Assembly (NCBI GenBank): GCA_037144045.1 | Contig: JBAWXN010000001.1 | Span: 134,744-198,743, forward strand | Source of the DNA: a bacterium | GTDB taxonomy: Bacteria > Patescibacteriota > Minisyncoccia > Phycocordibacterales > UBA1006 | DNA: 64,000 bases | Direction: 5' to 3' | Shown here: positions 2,580 to 53,678 of the stretch, piece after piece | Position numbering within the stretch: the stretch's first letter is position 1 | Layout: each line of letters begins with the position of its first letter | Position numbers and translations under genes: made by a program | The notes under the pieces: generated by a model | What the model saw: the letters and a program-made list of their open reading frames with translations, nothing else | Told to the model about the DNA's origin: nothing | Databases searched by the model: none

Positions 2580-3114
2580 ATTTCCCAAATTGCTTAAGGA
2601 GCATTTGCTCAGTTTCTATATCAAGGTGTGCTGTGGTAATAATCATCATTTCGGTAGTAAGTCCGAGATCTTGCTTAATATTAGTAAATAGATGCTCTAA
2701 AGGAAACGGGGAGATCCACGCTGAGTTTTTTAAGCATACAAATCCAGCCTTTTTGAGGAGGTATCGTAACGATTCACGTTCACTTTTCCGTGATTCAGGG
2801 AGGTCGAGGAGAATGATGCGCCATTGACCGTCCCAATTAGGAAGGAGGCTCGTATCACTTTCTAGTTTCAGGGTCGTAACTTTTTTACGACCTTTGGTGG
2901 TAAGGCGTGCATAGTCGTTTTGACCTGAAAAATGGCTCTCTATGAGTCCTGACTCAGCAAGTCCTTTCAGGGTCCTGTTTACTGCATAGCGTGCCTTGGG
3001 GGCTAAATTTGAGCCTTCAGAAGCCACTTTCTCTGCGAGTTCTGGCACTGAAACAGCCTTGCTTTCCGCAAGTATTTTAAGGATTTTTTTAGAATAGTCA
3101 GGATGCTTCGCCAT
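2578..3114 (-). CDS. PaaX-like winged-helix transcriptional regulator (putative)
   Basis: The N-terminal region looks like a winged helix (ILKILAESKAVSVPELAEKV). The C-terminal WRIILLDLPESRKSERESLRYLLKKAGFVCLKNSAWISP resembles a PaaX C-terminal domain. Confidence 0.4.
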   Translation of the reverse strand: MAKHPDYSKKILKILAESKAVSVPELAEKVASEGSNLAPKARYAVNRTLKGLAESGLIESHFSGQNDYARLTTKGRKKVTTLKLESDTSLLPNWDGQWRIILLDLPESRKSERESLRYLLKKAGFVCLKNSAWISPFPLEHLFTNIKQDLGLTTEMMIITTAHLDIETEQMLLKQFGK

Positions 3115-3141
3115 ATCAATAGTATGCTATCATAAGTACCT

Positions 3142-3636
3142 ATGTATACCAAAGAACAAATCTGGAATTCGTTTACTAAGGAATTTCGTATTATTAAACA
3201 CTTATCAGAAAAAATTCCAGCAGGTGGCGAACATCACAAGCCAACAGAAAAACAAAGAACTACTCTTGAATTACTGCACTACCTTGCAACATTTGGTGGT
3301 GGGATGTTTACTGTGGTTGCAACGGGTGATGGTGCAGCATTTATGAATTATGCAAAAAATGTTACAGAAATTACTGTGGAAAATTTTGCACAAGCAATTG
3401 ATAATCAAGAAGCTGCCATGAAAGAAATCTATGACGCGTTTACTGATGAGTCACTTGCAGAAGAAGTTTCGATATGGGGACAAACGCAATCACGCGCAAT
3501 CTTTCTATTAGATTGTTTAAGAATGCTTACGGCATATAAAATGCAGTTATTCCTCTACATTAAGGCCTCTGGAAATTTTGCTGTGGGAACCAGTAATGTA
3601 TGGGCGGGAATGGACATGCCTGCTCCGAAAGAATAA
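3142..3636 (+). CDS. Hypothetical protein (possibly DinB/YfiT-like helical bundle)
   Basis: Clean 164-aa ORF with its own spacing and no recognisable motif. The DinB-like assignment is a weak impression only. Confidence 0.3.
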   Translation: MYTKEQIWNSFTKEFRIIKHLSEKIPAGGEHHKPTEKQRTTLELLHYLATFGGGMFTVVATGDGAAFMNYAKNVTEITVENFAQAIDNQEAAMKEIYDAFTDESLAEEVSIWGQTQSRAIFLLDCLRMLTAYKMQLFLYIKASGNFAVGTSNVWAGMDMPAPKE

Positions 3637-44993: not shown

Positions 44994-46169
44994 ATGCAAC
45001 AACAAAAAGTCGTTATTATTGGAGGAGGATTTGCCGGGATCCGTACAGCGCTCGATTTAGTAAAAACAGGAACCTGTGAAGTCGTGCTTATTTCACAAAA
45101 TCCAAATTTTGAATACTATCCAGGACTCCATAAAATGATCGGTATTCACGATAGTGTAGTAGTTCAAGTACCCCTCGCAACGATTTTTGAAGGTAAATCA
45201 ATTTCTTTGGTATATGAAAAAGTAATAGGAGTTGATATTCATACTAAAACGGTTACTACAGAACATGCTCCTTATCAGGCTGACTATGTAATTCTTGCTA
45301 TGGGAAGTCAGACTGAATATTTTGGAATTGCTGGATTACCGGAAATGGCATTTGGATTTAAGTCGGTAGCTGAAGCTCGAAAACTGCGTAATCATATTGA
45401 AGACATGTTTGCTAAACACGTGAAGACTGACAAGGCAGAATCAGTGGTGGGGCTCCATATGGTTATTGTAGGTGCAGGTCCCAACGGGGTAGACCTGGCT
45501 GGTGAAATTGCTGCTTTGAACAAATCACTTGCAAAAAAATACGGAGTTATTGAATCACTGATCACAGTCGATCTTATTGAAGCTGCGAGTCGAGTCCTTG
45601 CCATGCTTCCTGAGCCAGTAAGTCATCGGGTGGAAAAACGACTCCGTGACCTTGGGGTAACCGTACTCTGTAATCGTGATCTTAAAAGGCAAGAATCATG
45701 GACTGTTGAACTTGCTGATATGACTATGGGTGCTAAAACGGTAGTATGGACTGCAGGAATTATTACCAATGAGTTAGTGAAGAAAATCGAAGGACTTACG
45801 TTAATGAAAAAAAATCGTGTAGCGGTAGACGAATTTCTTCAGGTGAAAGGAGCTCAAAATATATTTTGTGTGGGCGATGTAGCTGATACTCCTTATGCAG
45901 GACTTGCGCAAACAGCGTTGTATGATGGGGAATATGTAGCATCTGTCATCATGAATAAAATTTCGGGACAAAAATTCCACGCATATACTCCCAAACCTAA
46001 TGCATTTAACATTGGTGTTGGTCCAATGTGGTCAGTCATGCAAGTAGGCTCGTTTGTGTCATATGGATTTTTTCCTTATGTATTTAGATCATTAATTGAT
46101 ATTAAATTTTTCCTTTCTATCCTTCCTGTGAAGCAGGTATGGAAATTGTTTTTCAAAAAAGCATCCTAG
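44994..46169 (+). CDS. NAD(P)/FAD-dependent oxidoreductase, type II NADH dehydrogenase (NDH-2)-like
   Basis: First dinucleotide-binding motif VVIIGGGFAGI and second VIVGAGPNGVDLAGE, in an NDH-2-like two-Rossmann layout. Confidence 0.7.
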   Translation: MQQQKVVIIGGGFAGIRTALDLVKTGTCEVVLISQNPNFEYYPGLHKMIGIHDSVVVQVPLATIFEGKSISLVYEKVIGVDIHTKTVTTEHAPYQADYVILAMGSQTEYFGIAGLPEMAFGFKSVAEARKLRNHIEDMFAKHVKTDKAESVVGLHMVIVGAGPNGVDLAGEIAALNKSLAKKYGVIESLITVDLIEAASRVLAMLPEPVSHRVEKRLRDLGVTVLCNRDLKRQESWTVELADMTMGAKTVVWTAGIITNELVKKIEGLTLMKKNRVAVDEFLQVKGAQNIFCVGDVADTPYAGLAQTALYDGEYVASVIMNKISGQKFHAYTPKPNAFNIGVGPMWSVMQVGSFVSYGFFPYVFRSLIDIKFFLSILPVKQVWKLFFKKAS

Positions 46170-46180
46170 GATGCTTTTTT
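46155..46180. terminator. 26-nt perfect palindrome / bidirectional terminator containing the ndh stop codon
   Basis: AAAAAAGCATCCTAGGATGCTTTTTT. Confidence 0.75.
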
Positions 46181-46182
46181 GA

Positions 46183-46584
46183 TTAAAACGTTTGAGAAAG
46201 TGGTCTTGCTCCCTCTCCCTTTGGGAGAGGGTTGGGGTGAGGGGTTGATAATACGTGTCTGATCTTCTGAATAACGCTTTCTGGATGAGCTCGAAGTTCT
46301 TGGTTCGAAAATCTGAGACAGGTAATACCATATCCAGCAAGGTGTCGGCTTTTAGCAGTATCATAGGCTTGAGTATATTCGTGGTAGGGTCCATCTAGCT
46401 CCACGACAAGCATTTTCTCGTGACAATAAAAATCTACAACATAGTAATCAATTGAATGTTGACGTCTGAATTTATATCCAAGTTTCCTATTTCTGAGTAT
46501 TTCCCAGAGTAATGTTTCTTCAGGGGTGGTGTGACGCCGCAAAGATCTTCTCTTGATTAGTTCTCGTTCAAAGTTCCAGTACAT
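46183..46584 (-). CDS. DUF559 endonuclease-domain protein (Vsr/restriction-endonuclease-like fold), copy 1
   Basis: TPEETLLWEILRNRKLGYKFRRQHSIDYYVVDFYCHEKMLVVELDGPYHE is a typical DUF559 core. The last roughly 20 codons read through the left inverted repeat, so the real C-terminus is uncertain. Confidence 0.7.
   Translation of the reverse strand: MYWNFERELIKRRSLRRHTTPEETLLWEILRNRKLGYKFRRQHSIDYYVVDFYCHEKMLVVELDGPYHEYTQAYDTAKSRHLAGYGITCLRFSNQELRAHPESVIQKIRHVLSTPHPNPLPKGEGARPLSQTF
46211..46246. repeat. Left terminal inverted repeat of DUF559 element 1
   Basis: CCCTCTCCCTTTGGGAGAGGG (itself a palindrome) + TTGGGGTGAGGGGTT. Its reverse complement matches 46660-46694. Confidence 0.8.
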
Positions 46585-46659
46585 GCTACAAGTATAGGAA
46601 CATAATGCTCAAGTTTTGATTACTAAAGTGTAAAGAGGTTGTGGCTTTACTATTTTATT

Positions 46660-46694
46660 ACCCCTCACCCCAGCCCTCTCCCAAAGGGAGAGGG
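46660..46694. repeat. Right terminal inverted repeat of DUF559 element 1
   Basis: ACCCCTCACCCCAG + CCCTCTCCCAAAGGGAGAGGG. GC-rich in an AT-rich genome. Confidence 0.8.
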
Positions 46695-46699
46695 AGTAG

Positions 46700-47290
46700 T
46701 TACCTTTGTTTCTTAGCTTTAATAATTTTCAAAATGGCAGGGATTTTTTGAAAGTCTTCCATGAGGGTTGCGCGCATACCGCCATTGTAGAGTGCTGCAG
46801 CGGGGTGATAGAGTGGGAAAAAATATTCTGTGATAATATTAGGAATTTTTCGGTGTACCAATTTACCATGCGCTTCTGATATTTTAAGTTCAGGAAGGAA
46901 GTGATTCATCGAATGGCGACCAAGGAATATAATGACGTCAGGTTTAATGAAATTAAGTTCTGCATGGAGCCATGGTGCACAGTCTATTTTTTCTTGATGT
47001 TCGGGGTCTCGGTTTTGTGGTGGGCGATATTTTACAATGTTAGTAATATAAATATCTTCACGTTTCAAACCAATGCTTGCAAGCATTTCAGCGAGGAATT
47101 TTCCTGCACGACCAATAAAAGGTTTTCCTTGCTCGTCTTCGCTTTTGCCTGGCGCTTCGCCGATAAAAACTATTTTCGCATCAGGGTTGCCGTCACCAAA
47201 TACTGCCTGGATGGCGGTTTTTTTAAGTACACAAACACACTGTTCATGGTGAAGTTTTTGCAGATTGTCGAGTTCGGCTGCTCTGTTCAT
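46700..47290 (-). CDS. Uracil-DNA glycosylase, family 4
   Basis: GEAPG motif (FIGEAPGKSEDEQGKPFIGRAGKFL) and C-terminal HPAAALY. 196 aa. Confidence 0.85.
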   Translation of the reverse strand: MNRAAELDNLQKLHHEQCVCVLKKTAIQAVFGDGNPDAKIVFIGEAPGKSEDEQGKPFIGRAGKFLAEMLASIGLKREDIYITNIVKYRPPQNRDPEHQEKIDCAPWLHAELNFIKPDVIIFLGRHSMNHFLPELKISEAHGKLVHRKIPNIITEYFFPLYHPAAALYNGGMRATLMEDFQKIPAILKIIKAKKQR

Positions 47291-47354
47291 ATAAACAAGT
47301 ATATCAAAAAAATCCCTGACCAGTGTCAGGGAAAGTGTGTTCGCGTAAAAGTTG

Positions 47355-47801
47355 TTAAGCCTCGGTTTCTACAAGAAATTTTTCTTGTTTATAGCGAGTG
47401 CCGCCTGGATTCAGTGATCCTTCAGTGAGCAGGTCTTTATCAATAGCTACCACAGGTTTTTTCCTTTCAGGGGCTACTAATGAAACCGGTTGAGGTTTTT
47501 CTACAAGTGCCTGTTCGTAAGAATCTGCAGGTACTGAGGAATTTGTTTCCGCAACATATATCACTCGTAAAGCAACCGTTACCATGTTAGCAATGATTGC
47601 AATTACTGCCATTTGTATAAAAGGTGTTTCAAAGTCGAACCATTGAAAACCGAGTGCTGCAATCAGTCCAATACACAGCACAGAGGCGGCAAAAGGAATG
47701 AAGCGAGCTTTCTCGAATTCAGGGGTTCTAATAGTGGTTCCCAGTGTTAGTACGATACTGGCGAAAAAGGCGAAAATAAAAATAAATGGACTCATAAGCA
47801 A
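47355..47801 (-). CDS. Hypothetical membrane protein
   Basis: Three or four TM helices in the N-terminal 100 aa. No motif. Confidence 0.4.
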   Translation of the reverse strand: MLMSPFIFIFAFFASIVLTLGTTIRTPEFEKARFIPFAASVLCIGLIAALGFQWFDFETPFIQMAVIAIIANMVTVALRVIYVAETNSSVPADSYEQALVEKPQPVSLVAPERKKPVVAIDKDLLTEGSLNPGGTRYKQEKFLVETEA

Positions 47802-47825
47802 AACGTTTTTTTTGTATTAAATTGT

Positions 47826-48197
47826 TTGAAAGAACTTCCTTGTTTTATCAGGGCGCGAACACGGTCAAAAACATGGCATATGAGTATACCACATCTATTT
47901 AAAACAAGCAACTACCTTGATACTCACCCTATGAATATGCTACATTTCCCGTATATGTTTCAAAAATTTATTCTCAAAAAACTCATTGGCTCAAAATTAA
48001 AAGCAGCGGGAATGAACGATGCTCAAGTAGAACAATTATTAGATGTGGTTGCTAGTAATCCAGAATTTTTCAAGAAGATTCAAGACCAAGTAGAAGCCAA
48101 GAAAAAACAAGGTATTCCTGAACAAGCAGCCATGATGACGGTGATGCGTGAAAATCAAGCTGAATTACAGAAAATTTTAGCGGGAATTAATAAATAA
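47826..48197 (+). CDS. Hypothetical protein (start uncertain; possibly MFQKF at 47957)
   Basis: ORF with a helical, charged C-terminal half. No motif. Confidence 0.3.
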   Translation: MKELPCFIRARTRSKTWHMSIPHLFKTSNYLDTHPMNMLHFPYMFQKFILKKLIGSKLKAAGMNDAQVEQLLDVVASNPEFFKKIQDQVEAKKKQGIPEQAAMMTVMRENQAELQKILAGINK

Positions 48198-48201
48198 GAG
48201 T

Positions 48202-49311
48202 ATGTCACTCTCAATCGGAATTGTAGGACTCCCAAATGTGGGTAAGTCTACCTTGTTCAATGCGCTTACTAAAAAAGGCGTATTAATTGCTAATTATCCA
48301 TTCGCAACTATCGATCCATCAGTTGGGGTTGTTGCGGTACCTGATGAACGTCTTTATAAACTGGCGGATTTTTCGCAGACCCAAAAAACAATTCCTGCAG
48401 CTATTGAATTCGTAGATATTGCCGGGTTGGTTGCAGGGGCTTCACAAGGTGAAGGGTTGGGAAATAAATTCCTTGCGAATATTCGAGAAACTGATGCCAT
48501 TCTTGAAATGGTGCGTATCTTTGCGCTTGATGATGGTAAGGAAGCAATTAATCATGTATACGGTGAAATTGACCCATTACGCGATATAAAAGTGATTAAT
48601 ATGGAATTGATCCTTGCGGATATGGAAACCGTTGAGAAGCGCATTTCAAACCTTCAGAAGGATGTAAAACGTGGCGATAAAACTGCAGTACTTGAAGAAT
48701 CAATTGCAAAACGTATTCAAGAAGCACTCCTTGCAGAAAAGATGGCAAACACCGTAATCCTTACCGACGAAGAAGAAAAAATAGCAAAGCAGTTAAACTT
48801 GCTTACTCGCAAGAAATTCATTTATGGATTAAATAAACGATCAGGTGGAAAAAACCTTGATGAAACTGATCCTGAATTATTTACTAAAATCTGTAAAGAA
48901 ATTGAAAGTTATGGTTCTGAATGGGTGGTAATTGATGCAAAGACTGAACATGAATTATCTGATTTCGAAGGTGAAGAACGCGCCATGATGCGATCAGAAA
49001 TGGGAAGTGGTGATGATGGTATTGATACCCTTATCAAGAAATCTTATAAGCTTCTCGGACTTGCAACTTATTTTACAACCGGTGAAAAGGAAACACGTGC
49101 GTGGACTATCAAAGCAGGTTCAACAGCTCCCGTTGCCGCTGCCGCTATTCACACCGATTTCGAGAAGAAGTTCATTCGTGCAGAAGTAGTATTCTGGAGC
49201 GACCTCCTTGAATCGGGATCTATGGTGAATGCAAAATCTAAAGGATTAGTGCGCACTGAAGGGAAGGAGTATCTGGTAAAAGATGGTGATGTTATTGAGT
49301 TTAGAATCTAG
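48202..49311 (+). CDS. ychF: Ribosome-binding ATPase YchF (Obg-family GTPase)
   Basis: G1 IGIVGLPNVGKSTLFNALT, G-domain with a coiled-coil insertion, and a C-terminal TGS domain (AAAIHTDFEKKFIRAEV). Confidence 0.93.
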   Translation: MSLSIGIVGLPNVGKSTLFNALTKKGVLIANYPFATIDPSVGVVAVPDERLYKLADFSQTQKTIPAAIEFVDIAGLVAGASQGEGLGNKFLANIRETDAILEMVRIFALDDGKEAINHVYGEIDPLRDIKVINMELILADMETVEKRISNLQKDVKRGDKTAVLEESIAKRIQEALLAEKMANTVILTDEEEKIAKQLNLLTRKKFIYGLNKRSGGKNLDETDPELFTKICKEIESYGSEWVVIDAKTEHELSDFEGEERAMMRSEMGSGDDGIDTLIKKSYKLLGLATYFTTGEKETRAWTIKAGSTAPVAAAAIHTDFEKKFIRAEVVFWSDLLESGSMVNAKSKGLVRTEGKEYLVKDGDVIEFRI

Positions 49312-49312
49312 T

Positions 49313-49338
49313 AAAACCCCTCGAAATGAGGGGTTTTA
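49313..49338 (+). terminator. Rho-independent terminator
   Basis: AAAACCCCTCGAAATGAGGGGTTTTA. Confidence 0.8.
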
Positions 49339-49411
49339 GAGTACTTGACTTATATATTATATTGTGCTATAATAGTATCATTCTTTAACAAATCGCATAA
49401 ATATATAAACA

Positions 49412-49795
49412 ATGGGAAAAAATTCTAAAGGCGGAAACAAGGGTAGGCGCGATAGTAAGGGGCCTCATACCATAAGAAATACTACGCGCAAAATTAGGGC
49501 TACGCCTAAGTCAGGAGCAGTTACTCTGGTTATGTTTCAATCGCCAGAGCCAATCAATCTACTTGATACCTTGAAAGAAAAATTTCCTTTAGCTATTGAA
49601 GCTATCATTGGAAAATTTATTAATTTTCAGGCTATGAAGTTCGAAGAGGTGATTTCACGTATTCAGGTCTTTTTCAAGACTATGAACATTACTTGCGAAT
49701 TTCCCAAGGGAGTCAAAGATGTTGTAGTGATTCACGAGCTGATCACTGGTCCACTTGAAAGAGCGGAAACAGATTTAGCTAACCTTTCTTGGTAA
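49412..49795 (+). CDS. Hypothetical protein with a basic N-terminal tail
   Basis: 127-aa ORF, N-terminal GKNSKGGNKGRRDSKG. No motif. Confidence 0.35.
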   Translation: MGKNSKGGNKGRRDSKGPHTIRNTTRKIRATPKSGAVTLVMFQSPEPINLLDTLKEKFPLAIEAIIGKFINFQAMKFEEVISRIQVFFKTMNITCEFPKGVKDVVVIHELITGPLERAETDLANLSW

Positions 49796-49816
49796 TACCA
49801 TTAAAAAATTAAATAG

Positions 49817-49842
49817 AAAACCCTCACAGCAATGTGAGGGTT
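49817..49842. terminator. Bidirectional terminator
   Basis: AAAACCCTCACAGCAATGTGAGGGTT. Confidence 0.75.
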
Positions 49843-49859
49843 AACTAATGGAAAAAATA

Positions 49860-52304
49860 TTATTTCCTTTTTTTATCAGCGCTTGCCATAGCAATAAGTG
49901 CAACAACTTCATCGAGTGAAATTTCCATAGGATCAGTACGATCGGGAATGTAAATCCGTTTCATACCTTGCCGAATAAAGTTTCCTGATTTTGATTTCAA
50001 GATCTGGATTTCTTTTTTTGTTTTTGGATGAATACCTACAGTTCGTAGTAATTCAACACCCTTAGGAAGTGATTTAGGACTGTTTAATAATGTAACTGCC
50101 TGATCCAGGGTAATCGTATACGGATCAAACGGTTTTTTAATTGAACGGAAATCACGATTACGTCCTACGTAAGGCCCAAATCGTCCAATGTTGGCGATCA
50201 CAGGTTCGTGGGTTGTGGGATCGTTACCGAGTTCTCGAGGAAGTTCAAGAAGTTTTACTGCAAGTTCCAAAGTCATGTCTTCAGGTTTCATACGTGGTGG
50301 CAAACTTGCACGTCGTGGTCCCGGAAGCGTCTTTGCGGCTGCAATAATTTCTTTTTCTTGTTTTACTTTTTCCTTGTCGGCAGGTGTTTTTTTGTACCCC
50401 TTAGGCCAGGTGCTGAGCTTTGGTATAGGGATTGATTTACCGAGTTGTACATATGGGCCAAATCGTCCTGTAAGGAGGAAAATAGGTAAACCAGATTTTG
50501 GATGAATACCGAACGGTTTTTCATCGCCAACTTCTTGACCATCAATCGTTAAGGCTCCGTCACATTCTGGATAGCGAGTACACGACAAAAACTTTCCAGA
50601 ACGTCCGAGTTTAATTTCCATAGGGGCACCACACTTTGGACAAACGAATTTTGCATCAGCCATTCCAAGGTTGGTAATCTTAGGGATAGATTCTTTTGCA
50701 GTGACGTCAGCAATAAACGGAGTATAAAATTCACTTAAGGTTTTTTTATAGGTTCGTTTTCCTGCAGCAATATCGTCGAGTTTGTCTTCCATATCGGCCG
50801 TAAACGAATCAGAAATATAGTCCATGAAGTTCTGTTCAAGGAATGTTGATACGACATCACCAGTGTCGGTGGGATAGAGGGTACGTCCTTCTTTTTTCAC
50901 ATATTCACGTTCTTCGAGGGTACGCATAATAGATGCATAGGTCGAAGGTCGTCCAATGCCACGTAATTCAAGTTCCTTGATAAGTCCGGCTTCGGTATAG
51001 CGTCCCGGTGGTTGGGTTTGTTTACCGATGGCATCAAGTGATTCAAGTTTCAAAGTGTCACCAATAGTAAGTTTTGGAAGTTCAACGTCTTCACCTCGAG
51101 CAGCTCGATCAACCGTGAGCCATCCAGGAAATAGAAGTCGTGAACCGTTTGCGGTAAAATCAGGAATTTTTCCTGATGCGATATTTGCAACTAATCGTGT
51201 TTTAAGAAGCTTTGCGTCACTCATTTGTGACGAAACGGTCCGTTCCCAAACGAGTCGATAGAGTTCCTTTTGTTCGTCGGTTGCGCCAGCGTGATCAAGG
51301 TTGAAATGTGTAGGACGGATTGCTTCATGAGCTTCTTGAGCATTTTTAGATTTCGTAGCATAGGTTTTAGGTTGTACGTAGTCCTTACCGTATTTTTTCT
51401 CGATCAATCCAAGGATTTGTCCCTGAGCTTGTTTGGAAAGAGTGGTACTATCCGTACGCATATACGTAATATGTCCTGCTTCGTACAAGCGTTGTGCAAC
51501 TTGCATAGTTCTTGATGGTGAAAATCCGAGACGGGTACTGGCAGTTTGCTGCAAGGTTGAAGTTGTAAACGGAGCACGTGCTGCGCGTTTTTGTTCTGAT
51601 TCTTTAATGTCGGTTACTGACCAAGATTCCTTGTTTCCCAGTTCAAGAATGTGATCAACTATTTTTTTATCACGCGGTTCTTCAACACAGGTGAGTTTAA
51701 GGTCTTTATTAAATAGCCCCTCAATAACCCAAAAGTCTTCAGGAACAAATGCGCGAATTTCTCGTTCGCGTTCCATAATGATACGGAGTGCAGGGGATTG
51801 AACGCGCCCTGCTGATAATCCATACCGTACTTTTTTCCAAATGAGTCCTGATAGATCATACCCTACCAGTCGATCGAGTACGCGCCGTGCTTCTTGAGCA
51901 TGTACAAGTTGTTCATCGATTGCTCGTGGGTGTTGTAATGCTTCGGTTACGGCTTCCTTGGTGATTTCATGAAAGGTTGCACGTTTAATAGGAGCCTTGA
52001 TAGTTGAGTCTTTCAGTAGTTCTTGGAGATGCCAAGAAATGGCCTCTCCTTCGCGGTCGGGGTCAGTCGCAAGAATGATTTCATCAGCTTTGCGTGCGAG
52101 AGTTTGCAGTTCCGAAATAACACGACCTTTACCTGCAGAAATTTCATAGCGAGGAATAAATCCGCCGGGAATATCTATGGCGTCTTTGTTTGATTTTGGT
52201 AAATCACGTACATGACCAATAGATGCTCGCACGGTATATTTTCCGTCGAGGTATTTCTCAATCGTTTTTGCTTTTGAAGGGGACTCTACAATCAATAGTT
52301 TCAT
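49860..52304 (-). CDS. topA: DNA topoisomerase I
   Basis: Toprim (MKLLIVESPSKAKTIEKYL ... ATDPDREGE), catalytic Tyr region (ITYMRTDS), a C-terminal zinc ribbon (CPKCGAPM ... CTRYPECDG) and a basic tail. Start at MKLLIV; the ORF track starts at 52358. Confidence 0.95.
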   Translation of the reverse strand: MKLLIVESPSKAKTIEKYLDGKYTVRASIGHVRDLPKSNKDAIDIPGGFIPRYEISAGKGRVISELQTLARKADEIILATDPDREGEAISWHLQELLKDSTIKAPIKRATFHEITKEAVTEALQHPRAIDEQLVHAQEARRVLDRLVGYDLSGLIWKKVRYGLSAGRVQSPALRIIMEREREIRAFVPEDFWVIEGLFNKDLKLTCVEEPRDKKIVDHILELGNKESWSVTDIKESEQKRAARAPFTTSTLQQTASTRLGFSPSRTMQVAQRLYEAGHITYMRTDSTTLSKQAQGQILGLIEKKYGKDYVQPKTYATKSKNAQEAHEAIRPTHFNLDHAGATDEQKELYRLVWERTVSSQMSDAKLLKTRLVANIASGKIPDFTANGSRLLFPGWLTVDRAARGEDVELPKLTIGDTLKLESLDAIGKQTQPPGRYTEAGLIKELELRGIGRPSTYASIMRTLEEREYVKKEGRTLYPTDTGDVVSTFLEQNFMDYISDSFTADMEDKLDDIAAGKRTYKKTLSEFYTPFIADVTAKESIPKITNLGMADAKFVCPKCGAPMEIKLGRSGKFLSCTRYPECDGALTIDGQEVGDEKPFGIHPKSGLPIFLLTGRFGPYVQLGKSIPIPKLSTWPKGYKKTPADKEKVKQEKEIIAAAKTLPGPRRASLPPRMKPEDMTLELAVKLLELPRELGNDPTTHEPVIANIGRFGPYVGRNRDFRSIKKPFDPYTITLDQAVTLLNSPKSLPKGVELLRTVGIHPKTKKEIQILKSKSGNFIRQGMKRIYIPDRTDPMEISLDEVVALIAMASADKKRK

Positions 52305-52350
52305 AAATGTTCTATTGATAACATATAAGTAGGAGTGTTTGCAAATTACT

Positions 52351-52722
52351 TCACCCAATCCTAACCCGGTTCACGCAGTGAACCACCCTCTCCACTAGCG
52401 TGGAGAGGGTTTCCGAATTCTGTATTTCGCTGTTCAAAATTCTAATAGTCTTAATTCCTCGAGTGCTAAAGAATTTACTCCGAACGGAATCATATTCAAC
52501 TCCTTTCTCGGTGGTGTGATGTAGTCCGTCTATTTCTAGAGCTACTTTTTTTGAGTGGCAGTAGAAATCTACAATATAGTAACCAATACTTACTTGTCTA
52601 CGCCATTTAAGGCCAGATTTATTTTTTCTCAGTAGTTGCCACATAGTCTCTTCCTCGGGTGTTTGTTTTTTTCTGAGCTGTCTACGTTTTTTTAAATTTG
52701 TACCATCATTAATAAGTTTCAT
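52351..52722 (-). CDS. DUF559 endonuclease-domain protein, copy 2 (paralog of 46183..46584)
   Basis: TPEEETMWQLLRKNKSGLKWRRQVSIGYYIVDFYCHSKKVALEIDGLHH aligns with copy 1 at about 45% identity. Start taken at MKLINDG; the ORF track extends to 52779 through the right IR. The C-terminus reads through the left IR. Confidence 0.7.
   Translation of the reverse strand: MKLINDGTNLKKRRQLRKKQTPEEETMWQLLRKNKSGLKWRRQVSIGYYIVDFYCHSKKVALEIDGLHHTTEKGVEYDSVRSKFFSTRGIKTIRILNSEIQNSETLSTLVERVVHCVNRVRIG
52352..52410. repeat. Left terminal inverted repeat of DUF559 element 2
   Basis: CACCCAATCCTAACCCGG + GGTTCACGCAGTGAACC (palindrome) + ACCCTCTCCACTAGCGTGGAGAGGGT (palindrome). Inverted copy at 52748-52806. Confidence 0.8.
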
Positions 52723-52747
52723 AGTAGTTATAGAGCTAATTATTTGG

Positions 52748-52806
52748 ACCCTCTCCACGCTAGTGGAGAGGGTGGTCACCGCAGGTGACCGGGTGAGGAT
52801 TGGGTG
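52748..52806. repeat. Right terminal inverted repeat of DUF559 element 2
   Basis: ACCCTCTCCACGCTAGTGGAGAGGGT + GGTCACCGCAGGTGACC + GGGTGAGGATTGGGTG. Confidence 0.8.
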
Positions 52807-52811
52807 AAGTA

Positions 52812-53678
52812 CTACCTCCTCCTAACCACTCCTTCAGACTCACAAATAAACCCCTTCACCTCCATTTGAGTAATAAGTACCGTTGCTTTATGAATAGGGA
52901 GGTTTAGTTTTCGTATAAGGTCACCACGTGATTGGGGGTGCGTAAGGAGTTCAATAATGCGTTGTTCATCGGGATTGCATTGTGAAAACAGATCAAGCAT
53001 CGGCTGTTCAGTAACCTGAAACCCAAGTGCTTCGAGGATGTGCTCCGATGTTGTCACGGGTGTTGCGCCCATGCGAATAAGTTCGTTGGGTCCCTCGGAT
53101 TGTTGACTGAACATACTTCCGGGAACTGCAAGTACTTCGCGATTGTACTCTGTGGCAAGGCGCGCAGTAATACGAGTACCTGATTTATGGGTTGCTTCTA
53201 TGACCAGGGTTGCATGAGATAATCCTGCCAAGAGGCGATTACGTGCAGGGAATAACCAGTCGTTGGTTTTTTGATGTTCAGTAAATTCACTTACGAGGCA
53301 ACCACCAGATTTGAGAATTTTTTCAGCGAGGAACCTATTTGCACGCGGATAAATTATTTTTTCATCAAGTCCGGATCCTGGAAATGCAATAGTAGTTATT
53401 CCAATTTCAAGAGCTGCCTCATGGGCGATCGTATCAATACCGAGTGCGAGCCCTGAAACAATTACGATAGGGTATCCTCGCAATCCTTGAATCAGTTGTT
53501 TGCATGCTGCAAGTCCATATGATGAGTGGTTACGTGAACCAACAATAGTGAGAAATACTAATTTCTCATGATTAGGAAAAGTGCCACGAATCGTGAGTCT
53601 TCGAGGTGGTTGTGGGATATGTGCAAATAAGTCATTAATCGTACTCTCGGGTAGATAGTGGCAAGGGTAATCTTCCAT
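52812..53678 (-). CDS. dprA: DNA processing protein DprA (Smf)
   Basis: Rossmann-like DprA core (VIVSGLALGIDTIAHEAAL ... ATLVIEA ... SGTRITARLATEYNREVLAVPG) plus a C-terminal winged-helix-like domain. Confidence 0.85.
   Translation of the reverse strand: MEDYPCHYLPESTINDLFAHIPQPPRRLTIRGTFPNHEKLVFLTIVGSRNHSSYGLAACKQLIQGLRGYPIVIVSGLALGIDTIAHEAALEIGITTIAFPGSGLDEKIIYPRANRFLAEKILKSGGCLVSEFTEHQKTNDWLFPARNRLLAGLSHATLVIEATHKSGTRITARLATEYNREVLAVPGSMFSQQSEGPNELIRMGATPVTTSEHILEALGFQVTEQPMLDLFSQCNPDEQRIIELLTHPQSRGDLIRKLNLPIHKATVLITQMEVKGFICESEGVVRRR

What the first reader, a model, noticed from the sequence alone, without database searches (positions are those of the whole stretch)
46183..46700. DUF559 endonuclease gene bracketed by 36-bp GC-rich terminal inverted repeats built from palindromes (element 1)
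Left: CCCTCTCCCTTTGGGAGAGGG + TTGGGGTGAGGGGTT (46211-46246). Right: ACCCCTCACCCCAG + CCCTCTCCCAAAGGGAGAGGG (46660-46694). These are reverse complements with about 2 mismatches. Each carries an internal perfect palindrome, so each end can form a hairpin. The 484-bp unit carries only a DUF559 (Vsr/PD-(D/E)xK-like) gene whose C-terminus reads through the left repeat. Composition (GC-rich ends) contrasts with the AT-rich host. This is MITE/IS-like with an endonuclease cargo, and resembles a homing-type selfish element. Alternatively, the hairpins are REP-like terminators adopted around a paralogous gene family.
Basis: seen in the sequence. Interest (0 to 1): 0.65.

Follow-up and report, generated by a model that had tools for sequence, protein, structure and literature searches.

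The report
BoxC triplex repeats bracketing DUF559 nuclease
A small nuclease gene sits between two mirror-image copies of a known but unexplained bacterial repeat (BoxC, also called the triplex motif), and the same packaging recurs in more than a dozen phyla, so this nuclease family may be the long-missing partner of those repeats.

Summary
A 133-aa DUF559 (Vsr-fold) nuclease gene (46183-46584, minus strand) is bracketed by a 37-nt inverted repeat (46209-46245 / 46660-46696, 1 mismatch). Each arm holds a perfect 9-bp hairpin plus a third G/C block.

The arms are not a private TIR. They fit exactly the published BoxC / PIT / TMECO intrastrand-triplex repeat pattern, known in E. coli since the 1990s with unknown function.

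A second, diverged copy lies at 52347-52811. In 77 tail-independent DUF559 relatives from more than 12 phyla, 53 have such motifs on both sides (17-fold local enrichment).

Between relatives the arms are 91-100% identical while the gene is about 79-80% identical. Distant relatives have empty ung-ndh sites, and one has a decayed remnant.

Most copies of the repeat elsewhere are solo or gene-less inverted doublets. E. coli strains lacking ycjD (DUF559) carry fewer BoxC copies, though this is confounded by phylogeny.

Best reading: a selfish nuclease-plus-repeat cassette that works like REP-RAYT but with a different enzyme class. The nuclease acting on the repeats is inferred, not shown.

No paper in the searchable library links DUF559 to BoxC. 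No target-site duplication, transposase, own promoter or terminator was found.

The parts
46660..46696 (.). Upstream arm of element 1 in gene orientation. On the + strand it reads A-CCCCTCACCCC-AG-CCCTCTCCC-AAA-GGGAGAGGG-AG. On the gene strand it reads CCCTCTCCC-TTT-GGGAGAGGG-CTG-GGGTGAGGG-G, a full BoxC/TMECO triplex motif.
   Evidence: Fits the published pattern CCCTCNCCC-N3-6-GGGNGAGGG-N3-GGGNGAGGG. 97-100% identical in relatives.
46674..46694 (.). Hairpin of the upstream arm: 9-bp perfect stem, 3-nt loop.
   Evidence: DNA fold -9.7 kcal/mol.
46661..46671 (.). Third block of the upstream arm. It is a mirror copy of the hairpin stem with one central mismatch.
46585..46659 (-). 75-nt leader between the upstream arm and the ATG. 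No sigma-70-type promoter was found on this strand.
   Evidence: Only 71-73% identical in relatives.
46183..46584 (-). DUF559 (YcjD-type, Vsr-fold) endonuclease ORF, 133 aa, with stop codon at 46183-46185.
   Evidence: Pfam PF04480 at E 3.8e-32. PDB 3HRL at E 4e-33 and 3R3P at E 5e-6. AlphaFold2 mean pLDDT 86. Foldseek matches to 3HRL and I-Bth0305I.
46249..46554 (-). Catalytic core, residues 11-112, with the invariant residues D51, E62, D64 and H68.
46186..46248 (-). C-terminal tail (STPHPNPLPKGEGARPLSQTF), which is the translation of the downstream arm. It is predicted to be disordered.
   Evidence: pLDDT 45-48 for residues 121-133. The same PHPNPLPxGEG tail is seen in many homologues.
46209..46245 (.). 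Downstream arm of element 1. On the gene strand it reads A-CCCCTCACCCC-AA-CCCTCTCCC-AAA-GGGAGAGGG-AG.
46211..46231 (.). Hairpin of the downstream arm.
   Evidence: DNA fold -10 kcal/mol, z -4.0.
46153..46182 (.). Perfect 15+15 palindrome AAAAAAGCATCC|GGATGCTTTTTT between the cassette and the end of ndh. It is the probable bidirectional terminator and the host-side boundary of the insertion.
   Evidence: I4. Conserved in relatives. Empty sites L217 and L218 have only such a hairpin between ung and ndh.
52347..52410 (.). Element 2, downstream arm in gene orientation. It comprises a third block (52347-52367), an extra hairpin GGTTCAC-GCA-GTGAACC (52368-52384), and the main hairpin ACCCTCTCCAC-TAGC-GTGGAGAGGGT (52385-52410).
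   Evidence: DNA fold -19.1 kcal/mol, z -6.4.
52351..52722 (-). Element 2 DUF559 ORF, 123 aa, 40% identical to the element 1 protein.
52748..52811 (.). Element 2, upstream arm. It comprises the main hairpin (52748-52773), an extra hairpin GGTCACC-GCA-GGTGACC (52774-52790), and a third block (52791-52811). It abuts the dprA stop codon (52812-52814).
   Evidence: DNA fold -18.9 kcal/mol.

Best explanation
Element 1, and its diverged sibling at 52347-52811, is a cassette. It consists of a YcjD-type DUF559 endonuclease gene (Vsr / PD-(D/E)XK fold) enclosed by an inverted pair of BoxC/PIT/TMECO 'triplex-motif' repeats.

Shown:
- The arms fit the published repeat pattern exactly.
- The same packaging surrounds DUF559 genes in more than 12 phyla.
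- The cassette is an insertion into an otherwise short ung-ndh spacer.
- It is an old resident: its codon composition matches the host and it sits at the same site in relatives. Its GC-rich arms are nevertheless far better conserved than the gene.
- The same repeats occur elsewhere mostly as solo copies and gene-less inverted doublets. These share genome-specific variants with the gene-flanking arms.

Inferred mechanism:
- The gene has no promoter of its own and is expressed by read-through from the upstream host gene.
- The nuclease recognises its own repeat, as a hairpin, triplex or mirror-repeat sequence, and nicks or cuts there.
- Break repair that uses repeat copies as homology spreads and homogenises the repeats, and sometimes the whole cassette.
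- Recombination between the direct-repeat halves of the two palindromic arms deletes the gene and leaves doublets or single hairpins.

Functionally this is like a REP-RAYT (REPIN) partnership, but with a different enzyme class and a triplex-type repeat.
For: Identity of the arms:
- They fit CCCTCNCCC-N3-6-GGGNGAGGG-N3-GGGNGAGGG.
- E. coli carries the same motif, with a median of 11 places per genome.
- PMC4666352 equates it with BoxC/PIT.

Generality, using 80 loci found with a tail-less core alignment:
- The bracketing-IR score is at least 13 in 45 of 77 loci, against 3 of 261 shifted controls.
- A triplex-type motif lies upstream in 64 of 77, downstream in 57 of 77, and on both sides in 53 of 77.
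- Motif density is 3.7/kb next to the gene against 0.22/kb further than 600 nt away.
- The mirror third block is present with at most 1 mismatch at 37% of gene-adjacent hairpins, against 0.5% with shuffled flanks.

Selection on the arms:
- Element 1 arms are 97-100% identical to relatives, against 79% for the CDS and 66-70% for third codon positions.
- Element 2 arms are 91-94% identical, against 80% for the CDS and 62% for third positions.
- GC3 of the gene equals that of host genes.
- In element 2 the extra hairpin differs between the two arms yet is a perfect 7-bp stem in each.

Insertion and decay:
- L217 and L218 are empty ung-ndh sites, and L219 is a gene-less remnant at the same site.
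- The E. coli hrpB-mrcB spacer exists as an empty allele, a doublet in either orientation, and a collapsed single hairpin.

Solo copies:
- 136 of 142 motif copies in viral contigs are not next to a DUF559, and many are inverted doublets.
- Solo copies share idiosyncratic variants with the gene-flanking arms of the same locus: L130, L160, L191, L196, L204.

Copy number in E. coli:
- In an evenly spread sample of 60 genomes, ycjD+ genomes have 11-24 motif places (median 17).
- ycjD- genomes have 1-18 (median 8), and ST131/B2-type genomes have 1-2.

Enzyme:
- Invariant residues D51, E62, D64, H68.
- Homology to 3HRL and to the catalytic domain of the homing endonuclease I-Bth0305I.

Operon hitch-hiking:
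- dprA|topA in this window and trpB|trpA and hisH|hisA/F-like spacers in L321.
- No promoter or terminator was found in element 1.
Against: - There is no sign of recent movement. Both cassettes are fixed at the same sites in relatives whose DUF559 proteins are 76-85% identical to the window's.
- No solo copy of either arm occurs in the 64-kb window.
- 9 of the 77 DUF559 loci show no motif on either side (24 lack it on at least one side), and L290 has direct rather than inverted repeats.
- Both arm orientations occur, with the third blocks facing inward or outward.
- E. coli strains without ycjD still keep up to 13-18 copies.
- The E. coli copy-number difference rests on few phylogenetic events.
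- Vsr-fold enzymes are nickases with no known strand-transfer activity, so how a new copy would be inserted is not explained.
- No target-site duplication was found.
- No binding or cleavage data exist.
- PMC4666352 reported no mobility genes near the motifs.
Confidence: 0.5

Rival explanations
1. Homing into pre-existing repeat doublets. The BoxC repeats spread by some other means. DUF559 is a free-standing homing endonuclease gene whose target is the spacer of an inverted BoxC doublet. The arms are then the remains of the target, and serve as homology for gene conversion, rather than being products of the nuclease.
For: - Gene-less inverted doublets with the same arm geometry as element 1 (hairpins outward, third blocks inward) exist, for example in the E. 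coli hrpB-mrcB spacer and in viral contigs.
- The nuclease is homologous to the catalytic domain of I-Bth0305I.
- Empty and occupied alleles both exist.
Against: - The arms are only 37-64 nt, which is short for homology-driven copying.
- The two paralogous cassettes in one genome each have private arms and no matching doublets in the window.
- Solo copies share variants with gene-flanking arms, and copy number tracks ycjD. Both fit better if the nuclease has a role in maintaining the repeats.
- The L219 remnant shows that doublets can arise from cassettes by deletion.
Confidence: 0.2
2. The arms are cis-acting structures. They are hairpins at the two ends of the transcript or gene that stabilise, insulate or tune expression of a potentially toxic nuclease. 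The resemblance to dispersed BoxC repeats reflects shared ancestry, with no enzymatic link.
For: - Strong purifying selection acts on the arms in long-resident, vertically inherited cassettes.
- In element 2 the hairpins are maintained within each arm rather than by arm-to-arm pairing.
- The arms sit at fairly constant distances from the ORF ends.
- The cassette lies inside operons, where insulation could matter.
Against: - A plain hairpin would not need the mirror-symmetric third block, which co-varies with the stem.
- The same repeats are abundant far from any DUF559.
- PIT elements were reported to have no promoter or terminator activity, as cited in PMC4666352.
- Both arm orientations occur.
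Confidence: 0.15
3. DUF559 is a host nuclease that processes or repairs non-B DNA such as triplexes or hairpins. Its gene ends up beside such motifs only because the motifs are recombination and insertion hotspots.
For: - PMC4666352 links the motifs to genomic instability.
- The Vsr fold is that of a repair nickase.
- Neighbouring genes here and elsewhere are often DNA-metabolism genes: ung, dprA, topA, and imuB/dnaE2-like genes in L290.
Against: - A hotspot would collect many kinds of genes. Yet 53 of 77 DUF559 genes are bracketed on both sides in an ordered inverted geometry.
- In this window the motifs occur only around the two DUF559 genes.
- Gene presence is patchy within E. coli, at 3377 of 5426 genomes. 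That is unusual for a core repair function.
Confidence: 0.1
4. The inverted arms form an invertible switch. Site-specific or homologous recombination between them flips the gene relative to outside promoters.
For: - The DUF559 annotation is enriched (odds ratio 14) among computationally predicted programmed-inversion targets in PMC9881135.
- The E. coli hrpB-mrcB doublet is found in both orientations.
Against: - The gene has the same orientation in all relatives examined.
- No recombinase gene is nearby.
- The enrichment in that paper is what one expects simply from an inverted repeat overlapping the CDS.
Confidence: 0.03

Closest known systems
BoxC / PIT (potential intrastrand triplex) / TMECO triplex-motif repeats of E. 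coli and other bacteria (Holder et al. 2015, PMC4666352, and earlier work cited there)
   Same: - The arms of element 1 fit the published 37-nt pattern exactly.
- They have the hairpin plus mirror third block, a variable loop and the central mismatch.
- The inverted-doublet arrangement is also described for E. coli.
   Different: - In the literature the repeat is described as intergenic, gene-less and without any associated mobility gene.
- Here, and in 53 of 77 relatives, a pair of repeats encloses a DUF559 nuclease gene, and one arm lies inside the ORF.
- The host here is an AT-rich, small-gene genome with no solo copies in 64 kb.
- Element 2 and the alphaproteobacterial loci carry an extra hairpin within the arm.
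REP / REPIN - RAYT systems (a repeat family plus a single gene flanked by inverted copies of it)
   Same: - A nuclease-type gene is flanked by inverted copies of a short palindromic repeat.
- That repeat also occurs dispersed as solo copies and inverted doublets.
- Each paralogue has its own repeat variant.
- Repeats are homogeneous within a genome and differ between genomes.
   Different: - The enzyme is a PD-(D/E)XK Vsr-fold nuclease, not an HUH/Y1 transposase.
- The repeat has a three-block mirror (triplex-type) design.
- The core motif is conserved across phyla, whereas REPs are species-specific (statement from general knowledge).
- No activity has been shown.
Free-standing homing endonuclease genes; I-Bth0305I (EDxHD family, PDB 3R3P)
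   Same: - A homologous catalytic domain (profile E 5e-6; Foldseek TM 0.63-0.75).
- A small selfish-looking gene with presence/absence alleles.
   Different: - It is not in an intron or intein.
- It lacks the extra DNA-binding domain of I-Bth0305I.
- It is bracketed by structured repeats.
- Its target is unknown.
MITEs / IS elements with terminal inverted repeats
   Same: - Terminal inverted repeats.
- Gene-less short derivatives.
- Intergenic insertion.
   Different: - No target-site duplication.
- No transposase of any known class.
- No multiple identical copies in the window.
E. coli YcjD (b1289) locus
   Same: - The same protein family (NCBIfam PRK09767 is the best hit, but below its cut-off).
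- The ORF end runs into a hairpin of the same type, and a BoxC copy lies downstream, next to fabI.
   Different: The E. coli locus is degenerate. There is no BoxC upstream, the hairpin in the ORF end is imperfect, and the 3' end of the gene is partly duplicated.

Membership tests
BoxC/PIT/TMECO triplex-motif repeat (the arms) | Sequence pattern CCCTCNCCC-N3-6-GGGNGAGGG-N3-GGGNGAGGG | tested here: met
   Both arms of element 1 fit with no deviation (pattern from PMC4666352).
BoxC/PIT/TMECO triplex-motif repeat (the arms) | A third block that mirrors the hairpin stem (three-block intrastrand-triplex design) | tested here: met
   Detector hits at 46211-46243 and 46662-46694 with 1 mismatch in the third block. 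The mirror relation is general around DUF559 genes, at 37% against 0.5% in the control.
BoxC/PIT/TMECO triplex-motif repeat (the arms) | Dispersed, multi-copy and intergenic within one genome | tested here: inconclusive
   The 64-kb window holds only the two gene-flanking copies, and the rest of the 274-kb contig was not available. The feature is met in other genomes.
BoxC/PIT/TMECO triplex-motif repeat (the arms) | Forms an intrastrand triplex in vitro | not testable with these tools
   Only hairpin folding could be computed.
DUF559 / Vsr-like PD-(D/E)XK nuclease | Pfam PF04480 match above the gathering score | tested here: met
   110.8 bits against a cut-off of 20.6 for element 1, and 88.1 bits for element 2.
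DUF559 / Vsr-like PD-(D/E)XK nuclease | Conserved acidic and His catalytic residues, and the fold | tested here: met
   D51, E62, D64 and H68 are invariant in 61 sequences. 3HRL matches at E 4e-33. AlphaFold2 pLDDT is 86, with Foldseek TM 0.86 to 3HRL.
DUF559 / Vsr-like PD-(D/E)XK nuclease | Nuclease activity | not testable with these tools
REP-RAYT system | Gene flanked by inverted copies of a repeat that is also dispersed in the genome | tested here: inconclusive
   Flanking is met. Dispersal is not seen in this window, but it is seen in other genomes.
REP-RAYT system | The enzyme is an HUH / Y1 (IS200/IS605-like) transposase | tested here: not met
   The only Pfam matches are DUF559, MTES_1575 and DUF2726. 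It is therefore not a member, only an analogue.
MITE / IS element | Target-site duplication directly outside the inverted repeats | tested here: not met
   Flanks are ...AACTA|arm...arm|CAAGA for element 1. For element 2 they are ...GGTAG|arm...arm|ATTTG, where a TA cannot be told apart from an extension of the repeat.
MITE / IS element | A transposase gene, or several near-identical copies | tested here: not met
   No transposase is present. There are no further copies in the window.
Free-standing homing endonuclease gene | Presence/absence alleles at an orthologous site | tested here: met
   The site is occupied in the window and in L001-L006. It is empty in L217 and L218 and carries a remnant in L219. 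The comparison is only between fairly distant relatives (Ung 67-72% identical by tblastn).
Free-standing homing endonuclease gene | Cleaves the empty allele | not testable with these tools
   Needs an experiment.
Intrinsic terminator | GC-rich stem followed by a T-run | tested here: not met
   No terminator-like site was found in 46050-46800. The arms are followed by AGCAAG and CTGGGG, not by T-runs.
Known RNA families (Rfam 15) | A covariance-model match | tested here: not met
   Nothing better than E 0.09 in 45500-53500, and nothing on the arms of element 1.

The most novel reading that the evidence does not exclude
YcjD-type DUF559 nucleases are the missing enzymatic partner of the BoxC/PIT/TMECO triplex-motif repeats. 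This would be a second, non-HUH, REP-RAYT-like repeat-and-nuclease partnership. It would span more than a dozen phyla, including CPR-like bacteria, cyanobacteria, Bacteroidota and proteobacteria. In it, a Vsr-fold nuclease would recognise a non-B DNA structure (hairpin or triplex) and drive the spread, homogenisation and instability of the repeats.
Probability: 0.4. Interest if true: 0.85.

Novelty: new variant of a known kind. Interest (0 to 1): 0.7.

Why it matters
BoxC/PIT/TMECO repeats have been known for about 30 years. They occur thousands of times in proteobacteria and cyanobacteria and are linked to genome instability. They have no known function or means of spread, and the main study explicitly found no associated mobility gene.

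DUF559 is a large family of small nucleases with no assigned role. A physical link between the two, conserved across phyla, gives both a testable function.

- It predicts a substrate for YcjD-type proteins.
- It suggests why BoxC copy number differs so much between E. coli lineages.
- It may explain why DUF559 shows up as a false 'programmed inversion' target.
- It explains the PHPNPLPxGEG-type tails that appear on many predicted DUF559 proteins in databases.

If the nuclease does read a hairpin or triplex structure, it would also be of interest as a structure-specific DNA tool.

Tried and rejected
- **Rfam:** a scan of 45500-53500 found no family on the arms.
- **Promoter and terminator scan of 46050-46800:** no promoter for the gene strand and no terminator.
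- **Target-site duplications:** none is convincing at either element.
- **Insertion right after a stop codon:** this holds for both window cassettes and for L321. It is not general, holding for only 5-6 of about 42 loci per side.
- **Defence-system libraries:** only marginal PADLOC hits. NCBIfam gives only the YcjD model, below its cut-off.
- **Arm-to-arm pairing in the mRNA as the selected feature:** rejected because the extra hairpin of element 2 differs between the arms yet is perfect within each.
- **C-terminal tail as a functional peptide:** unlikely. It is predicted to be disordered, and its stop position varies among close relatives.
- **Recent mobility:** I looked for identical proteins in different contexts (P0071, P0020). 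They sit mostly at one locus each.
- **Literature:** No paper links DUF559 to these repeats. One search, on 'BoxC' as a word start, was swamped by unrelated terms.
- **Limits on the search:** the library lacks most subscription journals, so prior description cannot be excluded.
Full report
**1. The observation**

The region 46183-46700 contains a 133-aa ORF on the minus strand (46183-46584). It matches Pfam DUF559 at E 3.8e-32.

The ORF is bracketed by a 37-nt inverted repeat at 46209-46245 and 46660-46696, with one mismatch. Each arm consists of two parts:
- a perfect hairpin, CCCTCTCCC-WWW-GGGAGAGGG;
- two bases further on, a block GGGGTGAGGGG / CCCCTCACCCC.

The hairpin pattern, allowing up to 3 mismatches, occurs nowhere else in the 64-kb window and in none of 100 shuffles. 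The arms have GC 0.65-0.68, against 0.38 for the interior and 0.395 for the window. They fold as DNA hairpins of about -10 kcal/mol.

The last 21 codons of the ORF are the translation of the downstream arm.

**2. A second copy in the window**

A tblastn search with the protein found a paralogue, 40% identical, at 52351-52722 on the minus strand. It is bracketed by 64-nt inverted arms at 52347-52410 and 52748-52811.

These arms have the same logic as those of element 1, with one addition:
- a main hairpin, ACCCTCTCCAC-loop-GTGGAGAGGGT;
- a C/G-rich outer block containing CCTCACCC;
- an extra 7-bp hairpin between the two.

The extra hairpin has a different sequence in the two arms (GGTCACC...GGTGACC against GGTTCAC...GTGAACC). 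It forms a perfect stem in both. Selection therefore acts on the structure within each arm, not on pairing between the arms.

Both cassettes abut the stop codon of the upstream gene on the same strand:
- ung, 3 nt away;
- dprA, 0 nt away, where the cassette lies between dprA and topA.

**3. What the arms are**

It returned 120 stretches carrying 142 copies of CCTCAC-N-CCCTCTCCC-loop-GGGAGAGGG. The unit has sharp boundaries, unconserved flanks and variable loops.

A copy from that scan matched E. coli genomes at a median of 11 places per genome. One example is an inverted doublet between hrpB and mrcB.

A full-text search for the motif sequence led to Holder et al. 2015 (PMC4666352). That paper identifies the sequence as BoxC, also called the PIT element or 'TMECO' triplex motif, with these properties:
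- the pattern is CCCTCNCCC-N3-6-GGGNGAGGG-N3-GGGNGAGGG;
- there are 23 copies in E. coli K-12;
- there are 3610 copies in 262 proteobacterial genomes;
- copy number varies widely between strains;
- it forms a triplex in vitro;
- its function is unknown;
- the authors state that they 'never found' transposase or integrase remnants nearby.

The paper does not mention endonuclease, ycjD or DUF559.

Both arms of element 1 fit the published pattern without deviation. On the gene strand the upstream arm reads CCCTCTCCC-TTT-GGGAGAGGG-CTG-GGGTGAGGG-G.

**4. The link to DUF559 is general**

Homologues of the protein very often end in PHPNPLPxGEG-like tails. That search was biased, because the query carried the tail itself.

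I therefore built a tail-less core alignment (A2) and scanned one genome per species. The 80 best loci come from more than 12 phyla. These include Acidobacteriota, Chloroflexota, Bacteroidota, Cyanobacteria, several CPR groups, Omnitrophota, Verrucomicrobiota, Nitrospirota, Planctomycetota, Proteobacteria and Spirochaetota.

| Measure | Result |
|---|---|
| Ungapped bracketing-IR score of at least 13 | 45 of 77 loci, against 3 of 261 shifted controls |
| Three-block motif within 350 nt upstream | 64 of 77 |
| Three-block motif downstream | 57 of 77 |
| Three-block motif on both sides | 53 of 77 |
| Motif density next to the gene | 3.7/kb, against 0.22/kb further than 600 nt away |
| Gene-adjacent hairpins with a mirror third block (at most 1 mismatch) | 37%, against 0.5% with shuffled flanks |
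| Mirror copies against direct copies among asymmetric stems | 44 against 12 |

The stems vary between lineages (CCCTCTCCC, CCCCTCTCC, CCCCCTCC, CCTTCTCC and others). The third block varies with them.

Two orientations occur. In most loci the third blocks face outward, as in element 2. In a minority, including element 1 and the CPR loci L138 and L196, they face inward.

Alphaproteobacterial loci from viral contigs show composite arms with an extra hairpin, like element 2.

**5. Selection, age and insertion**

Close relatives carry element 1 at the same ung/ndh site, with DUF559 proteins 76-77% identical to the window's. A relative whose protein is 85% identical carries element 2 at the same dprA/topA site.

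| Region | Element 1 identity to relatives | Element 2 identity to relative |
|---|---|---|
| Arms | 97-100% | 91-94% |
| CDS | 79% | 80% |
| Third codon positions | 66-70% | 62% |
| Leader | 71-73% | 56% |

(All values.)

The genes have the GC3 of host genes. These are therefore old residents whose GC-rich arms are held by purifying selection or are continually homogenised.

More distant relatives, with Ung up to about 72% identical, differ at this site:
- L217 and L218 have ung and ndh separated only by a 67-75-nt spacer holding a bidirectional terminator hairpin;
- L219 has a decayed element at the same site, with a partial G-rich arm, about 140 nt, then an intact motif;
- the L219 remnant keeps an ORF fragment '...SPQPSPSQGEGAKAE' but has no DUF559 domain.

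The cassette is thus an insertion between the ung stop codon and the terminator (46153-46182). It can lose its gene and leave repeats behind.

**6. Gene-less copies and E. coli natural variation**

Only 6 of the 142 motif copies in viral contigs lie within 300 nt of a DUF559. Many others are inverted doublets.

Within single loci, distant solo copies share idiosyncratic stem and loop variants with the arms flanking the gene: L130, L160, L191, L196, L204.

In E. coli the hrpB-mrcB spacer exists in several allelic states:
- empty;
- a doublet in either orientation;
- a single hairpin, produced by collapse between the direct-repeat halves of the two palindromic arms.

E. coli ycjD (DUF559, b1289) lies next to fabI. 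Its ORF end runs into a degenerate hairpin. A BoxC copy and a partial duplicate of the gene's 3' end lie downstream.

The ycjD locus is present in 3377 of 5426 complete genomes. In an evenly spread sample of 60 genomes:
- the 37 ycjD+ genomes have 11-24 motif places (median 17);
- the 23 ycjD- genomes have 1-18 (median 8);
- ST131/UPEC-type genomes have 1-2.

The difference is significant (Mann-Whitney p = 3e-9). It rests on few independent lineages, so it is suggestive only.

**7. The protein**

- The profile of the core matches PDB 3HRL (the Neisseria DUF559 protein) at E 4e-33.
- It also matches 3R3P (the catalytic domain of the homing endonuclease I-Bth0305I) at E 5e-6.
- The AlphaFold2 model is confident for residues 1-112 (mean pLDDT 86). 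It is disordered over the tail encoded by the repeat.
- Foldseek recovers 3HRL (TM 0.86), then I-Bth0305I (TM 0.63-0.75). Vsr and other PD-(D/E)XK nucleases follow more weakly.
- D51, E62, D64 and H68 are invariant in 61 sequences.
- No defence-system family matches meaningfully.

**8. Expression context**

No sigma-70-type promoter was found on the gene strand between the upstream arm and the ATG. There is no terminator-like site either.

In this window both cassettes follow a gene on the same strand. In L321, one cassette exactly fills the trpB-trpA spacer. A second cassette there lies between a GATase gene and a His_biosynth gene and is read in frame with the latter.

Read-through expression is therefore the likely mode, but this is an inference. 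Tight abutment to stop codons is not a general rule in the 77 loci.

**9. Interpretation**

The anatomy, its generality, the selection on the arms, the insertion status, and the existence of gene-less derivatives are shown.

That the nuclease acts on the repeats is inferred from four lines of evidence:
- the physical linkage;
- the private arm variants of each paralogue;
- the sharing of variants between gene-flanking arms and solo copies;
- the E. coli copy-number contrast.

The closest working analogy is REP-RAYT. The cassette is not a member of that family, because the enzyme class differs. It also fails the tests for an IS element or MITE, having no target-site duplication and no transposase.

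The rival explanations are homing into pre-existing doublets, purely cis-acting structures, a host nuclease sitting at a hotspot, and an inversion switch. They are listed with their evidence in the Rival explanations section. The first cannot be separated from the favoured model with these data.

**10. Novelty**

The repeat and the protein family are each known. I did not find their association in the searchable library. The main paper on the repeat states that no mobility function was found nearby. Subscription-only literature could not be searched.

The enrichment of 'DUF559' among predicted programmed inversions in PMC9881135 is probably a by-product of these arms.

Noticed in passing
window 52347-52811: A second DUF559 cassette sits between dprA and topA. 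Its protein is 40% identical to that of element 1. Its 64-nt arms carry an extra hairpin that differs in sequence between the two arms but is a perfect 7-bp stem in each.
   Followed up: yes
window 52368-52384 vs L289 (aligned columns 470-486 of A3): The 3-nt loop of the extra hairpin reads TGC in the window and GCA, its reverse complement, in the orthologous arm of a relative, while the stems are identical. This looks like a loop flip, as expected from hairpin or cruciform template switching or from exchange between arms.
   Followed up: partly
L219 about 3031-3399: At the orthologous ung-ndh site of a more distant relative there is a decayed cassette. It has a partial G-rich arm, about 140 nt of sequence and an intact triplex motif, but no DUF559 domain. 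The same spacer also holds an unrelated long inverted repeat.
   Followed up: partly
L127 1460-1550; L291, L292, L293 (E. coli hrpB-mrcB spacer): One E. coli intergenic site exists as an empty allele, a BoxC doublet in either orientation with different junction sequences, and a collapsed single hairpin.
   Followed up: yes
E. coli genomes: ycjD is absent from about 38% of complete E. coli genomes, including O157:H7, ST131 and Nissle-type strains. Those genomes carry fewer BoxC-like copies, and the B2-type strains carry only 1-2.
   Followed up: partly
L128 5200-5440 (E. coli K-12, between ycjD and fabI): About 50 nt of the 3' end of ycjD is duplicated downstream of the gene, followed by an inverted BoxC copy. 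Upstream of ycjD there is a different perfect 17-nt palindrome instead of a BoxC.
   Followed up: no
L295-L312, e.g. L301 1670-4765: In GC-rich alphaproteobacteria-like contigs, DUF559 cassettes sit between what look like terminase and portal genes of small phage- or GTA-like clusters. The gene identities were read from ORF translations and not confirmed with a domain search. Just upstream is a conserved GAAC-N7-GAAC (GTTC-N7-GTTC on the other strand) motif. From memory it resembles an alphaproteobacterial LexA box; this was not tested.
   Followed up: partly
L290 1720-2480: A DUF559 gene lies between a Y-family polymerase-like gene and a DnaE-type polymerase gene. It is flanked by direct, not inverted, copies of a composite repeat of about 70 nt with two hairpins.
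   Followed up: no
L321 2440-2990 and 4457-5393: Two DUF559 cassettes lie inside amino-acid biosynthesis operons. One exactly fills the trpB-trpA spacer. The other is read in frame into the following His_biosynth gene.
   Followed up: partly
window 49860-52358: The mechanical topA ORF starts at a TTG inside the element 2 arm. The real start is probably the ATG near 52304 (MKLLIVESPSK...), so the arm is intergenic.
   Followed up: no
Fold search result: The DUF559 model also matches subunits of ciliate and apicomplexan mitochondrial ribosomes (6z1p_AS, 9i05). This fits a paper in the DUF559 literature list that reports this domain in Plasmodium proteins.
   Followed up: no
window 46153-46182: A perfect 30-nt palindrome with no loop (AAAAAAGCATCCTAGGATGCTTTTTT) lies between the cassette and the end of ndh. 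It is conserved in relatives. The terminator scan missed it because its loop is shorter than 3 nt.
   Followed up: partly
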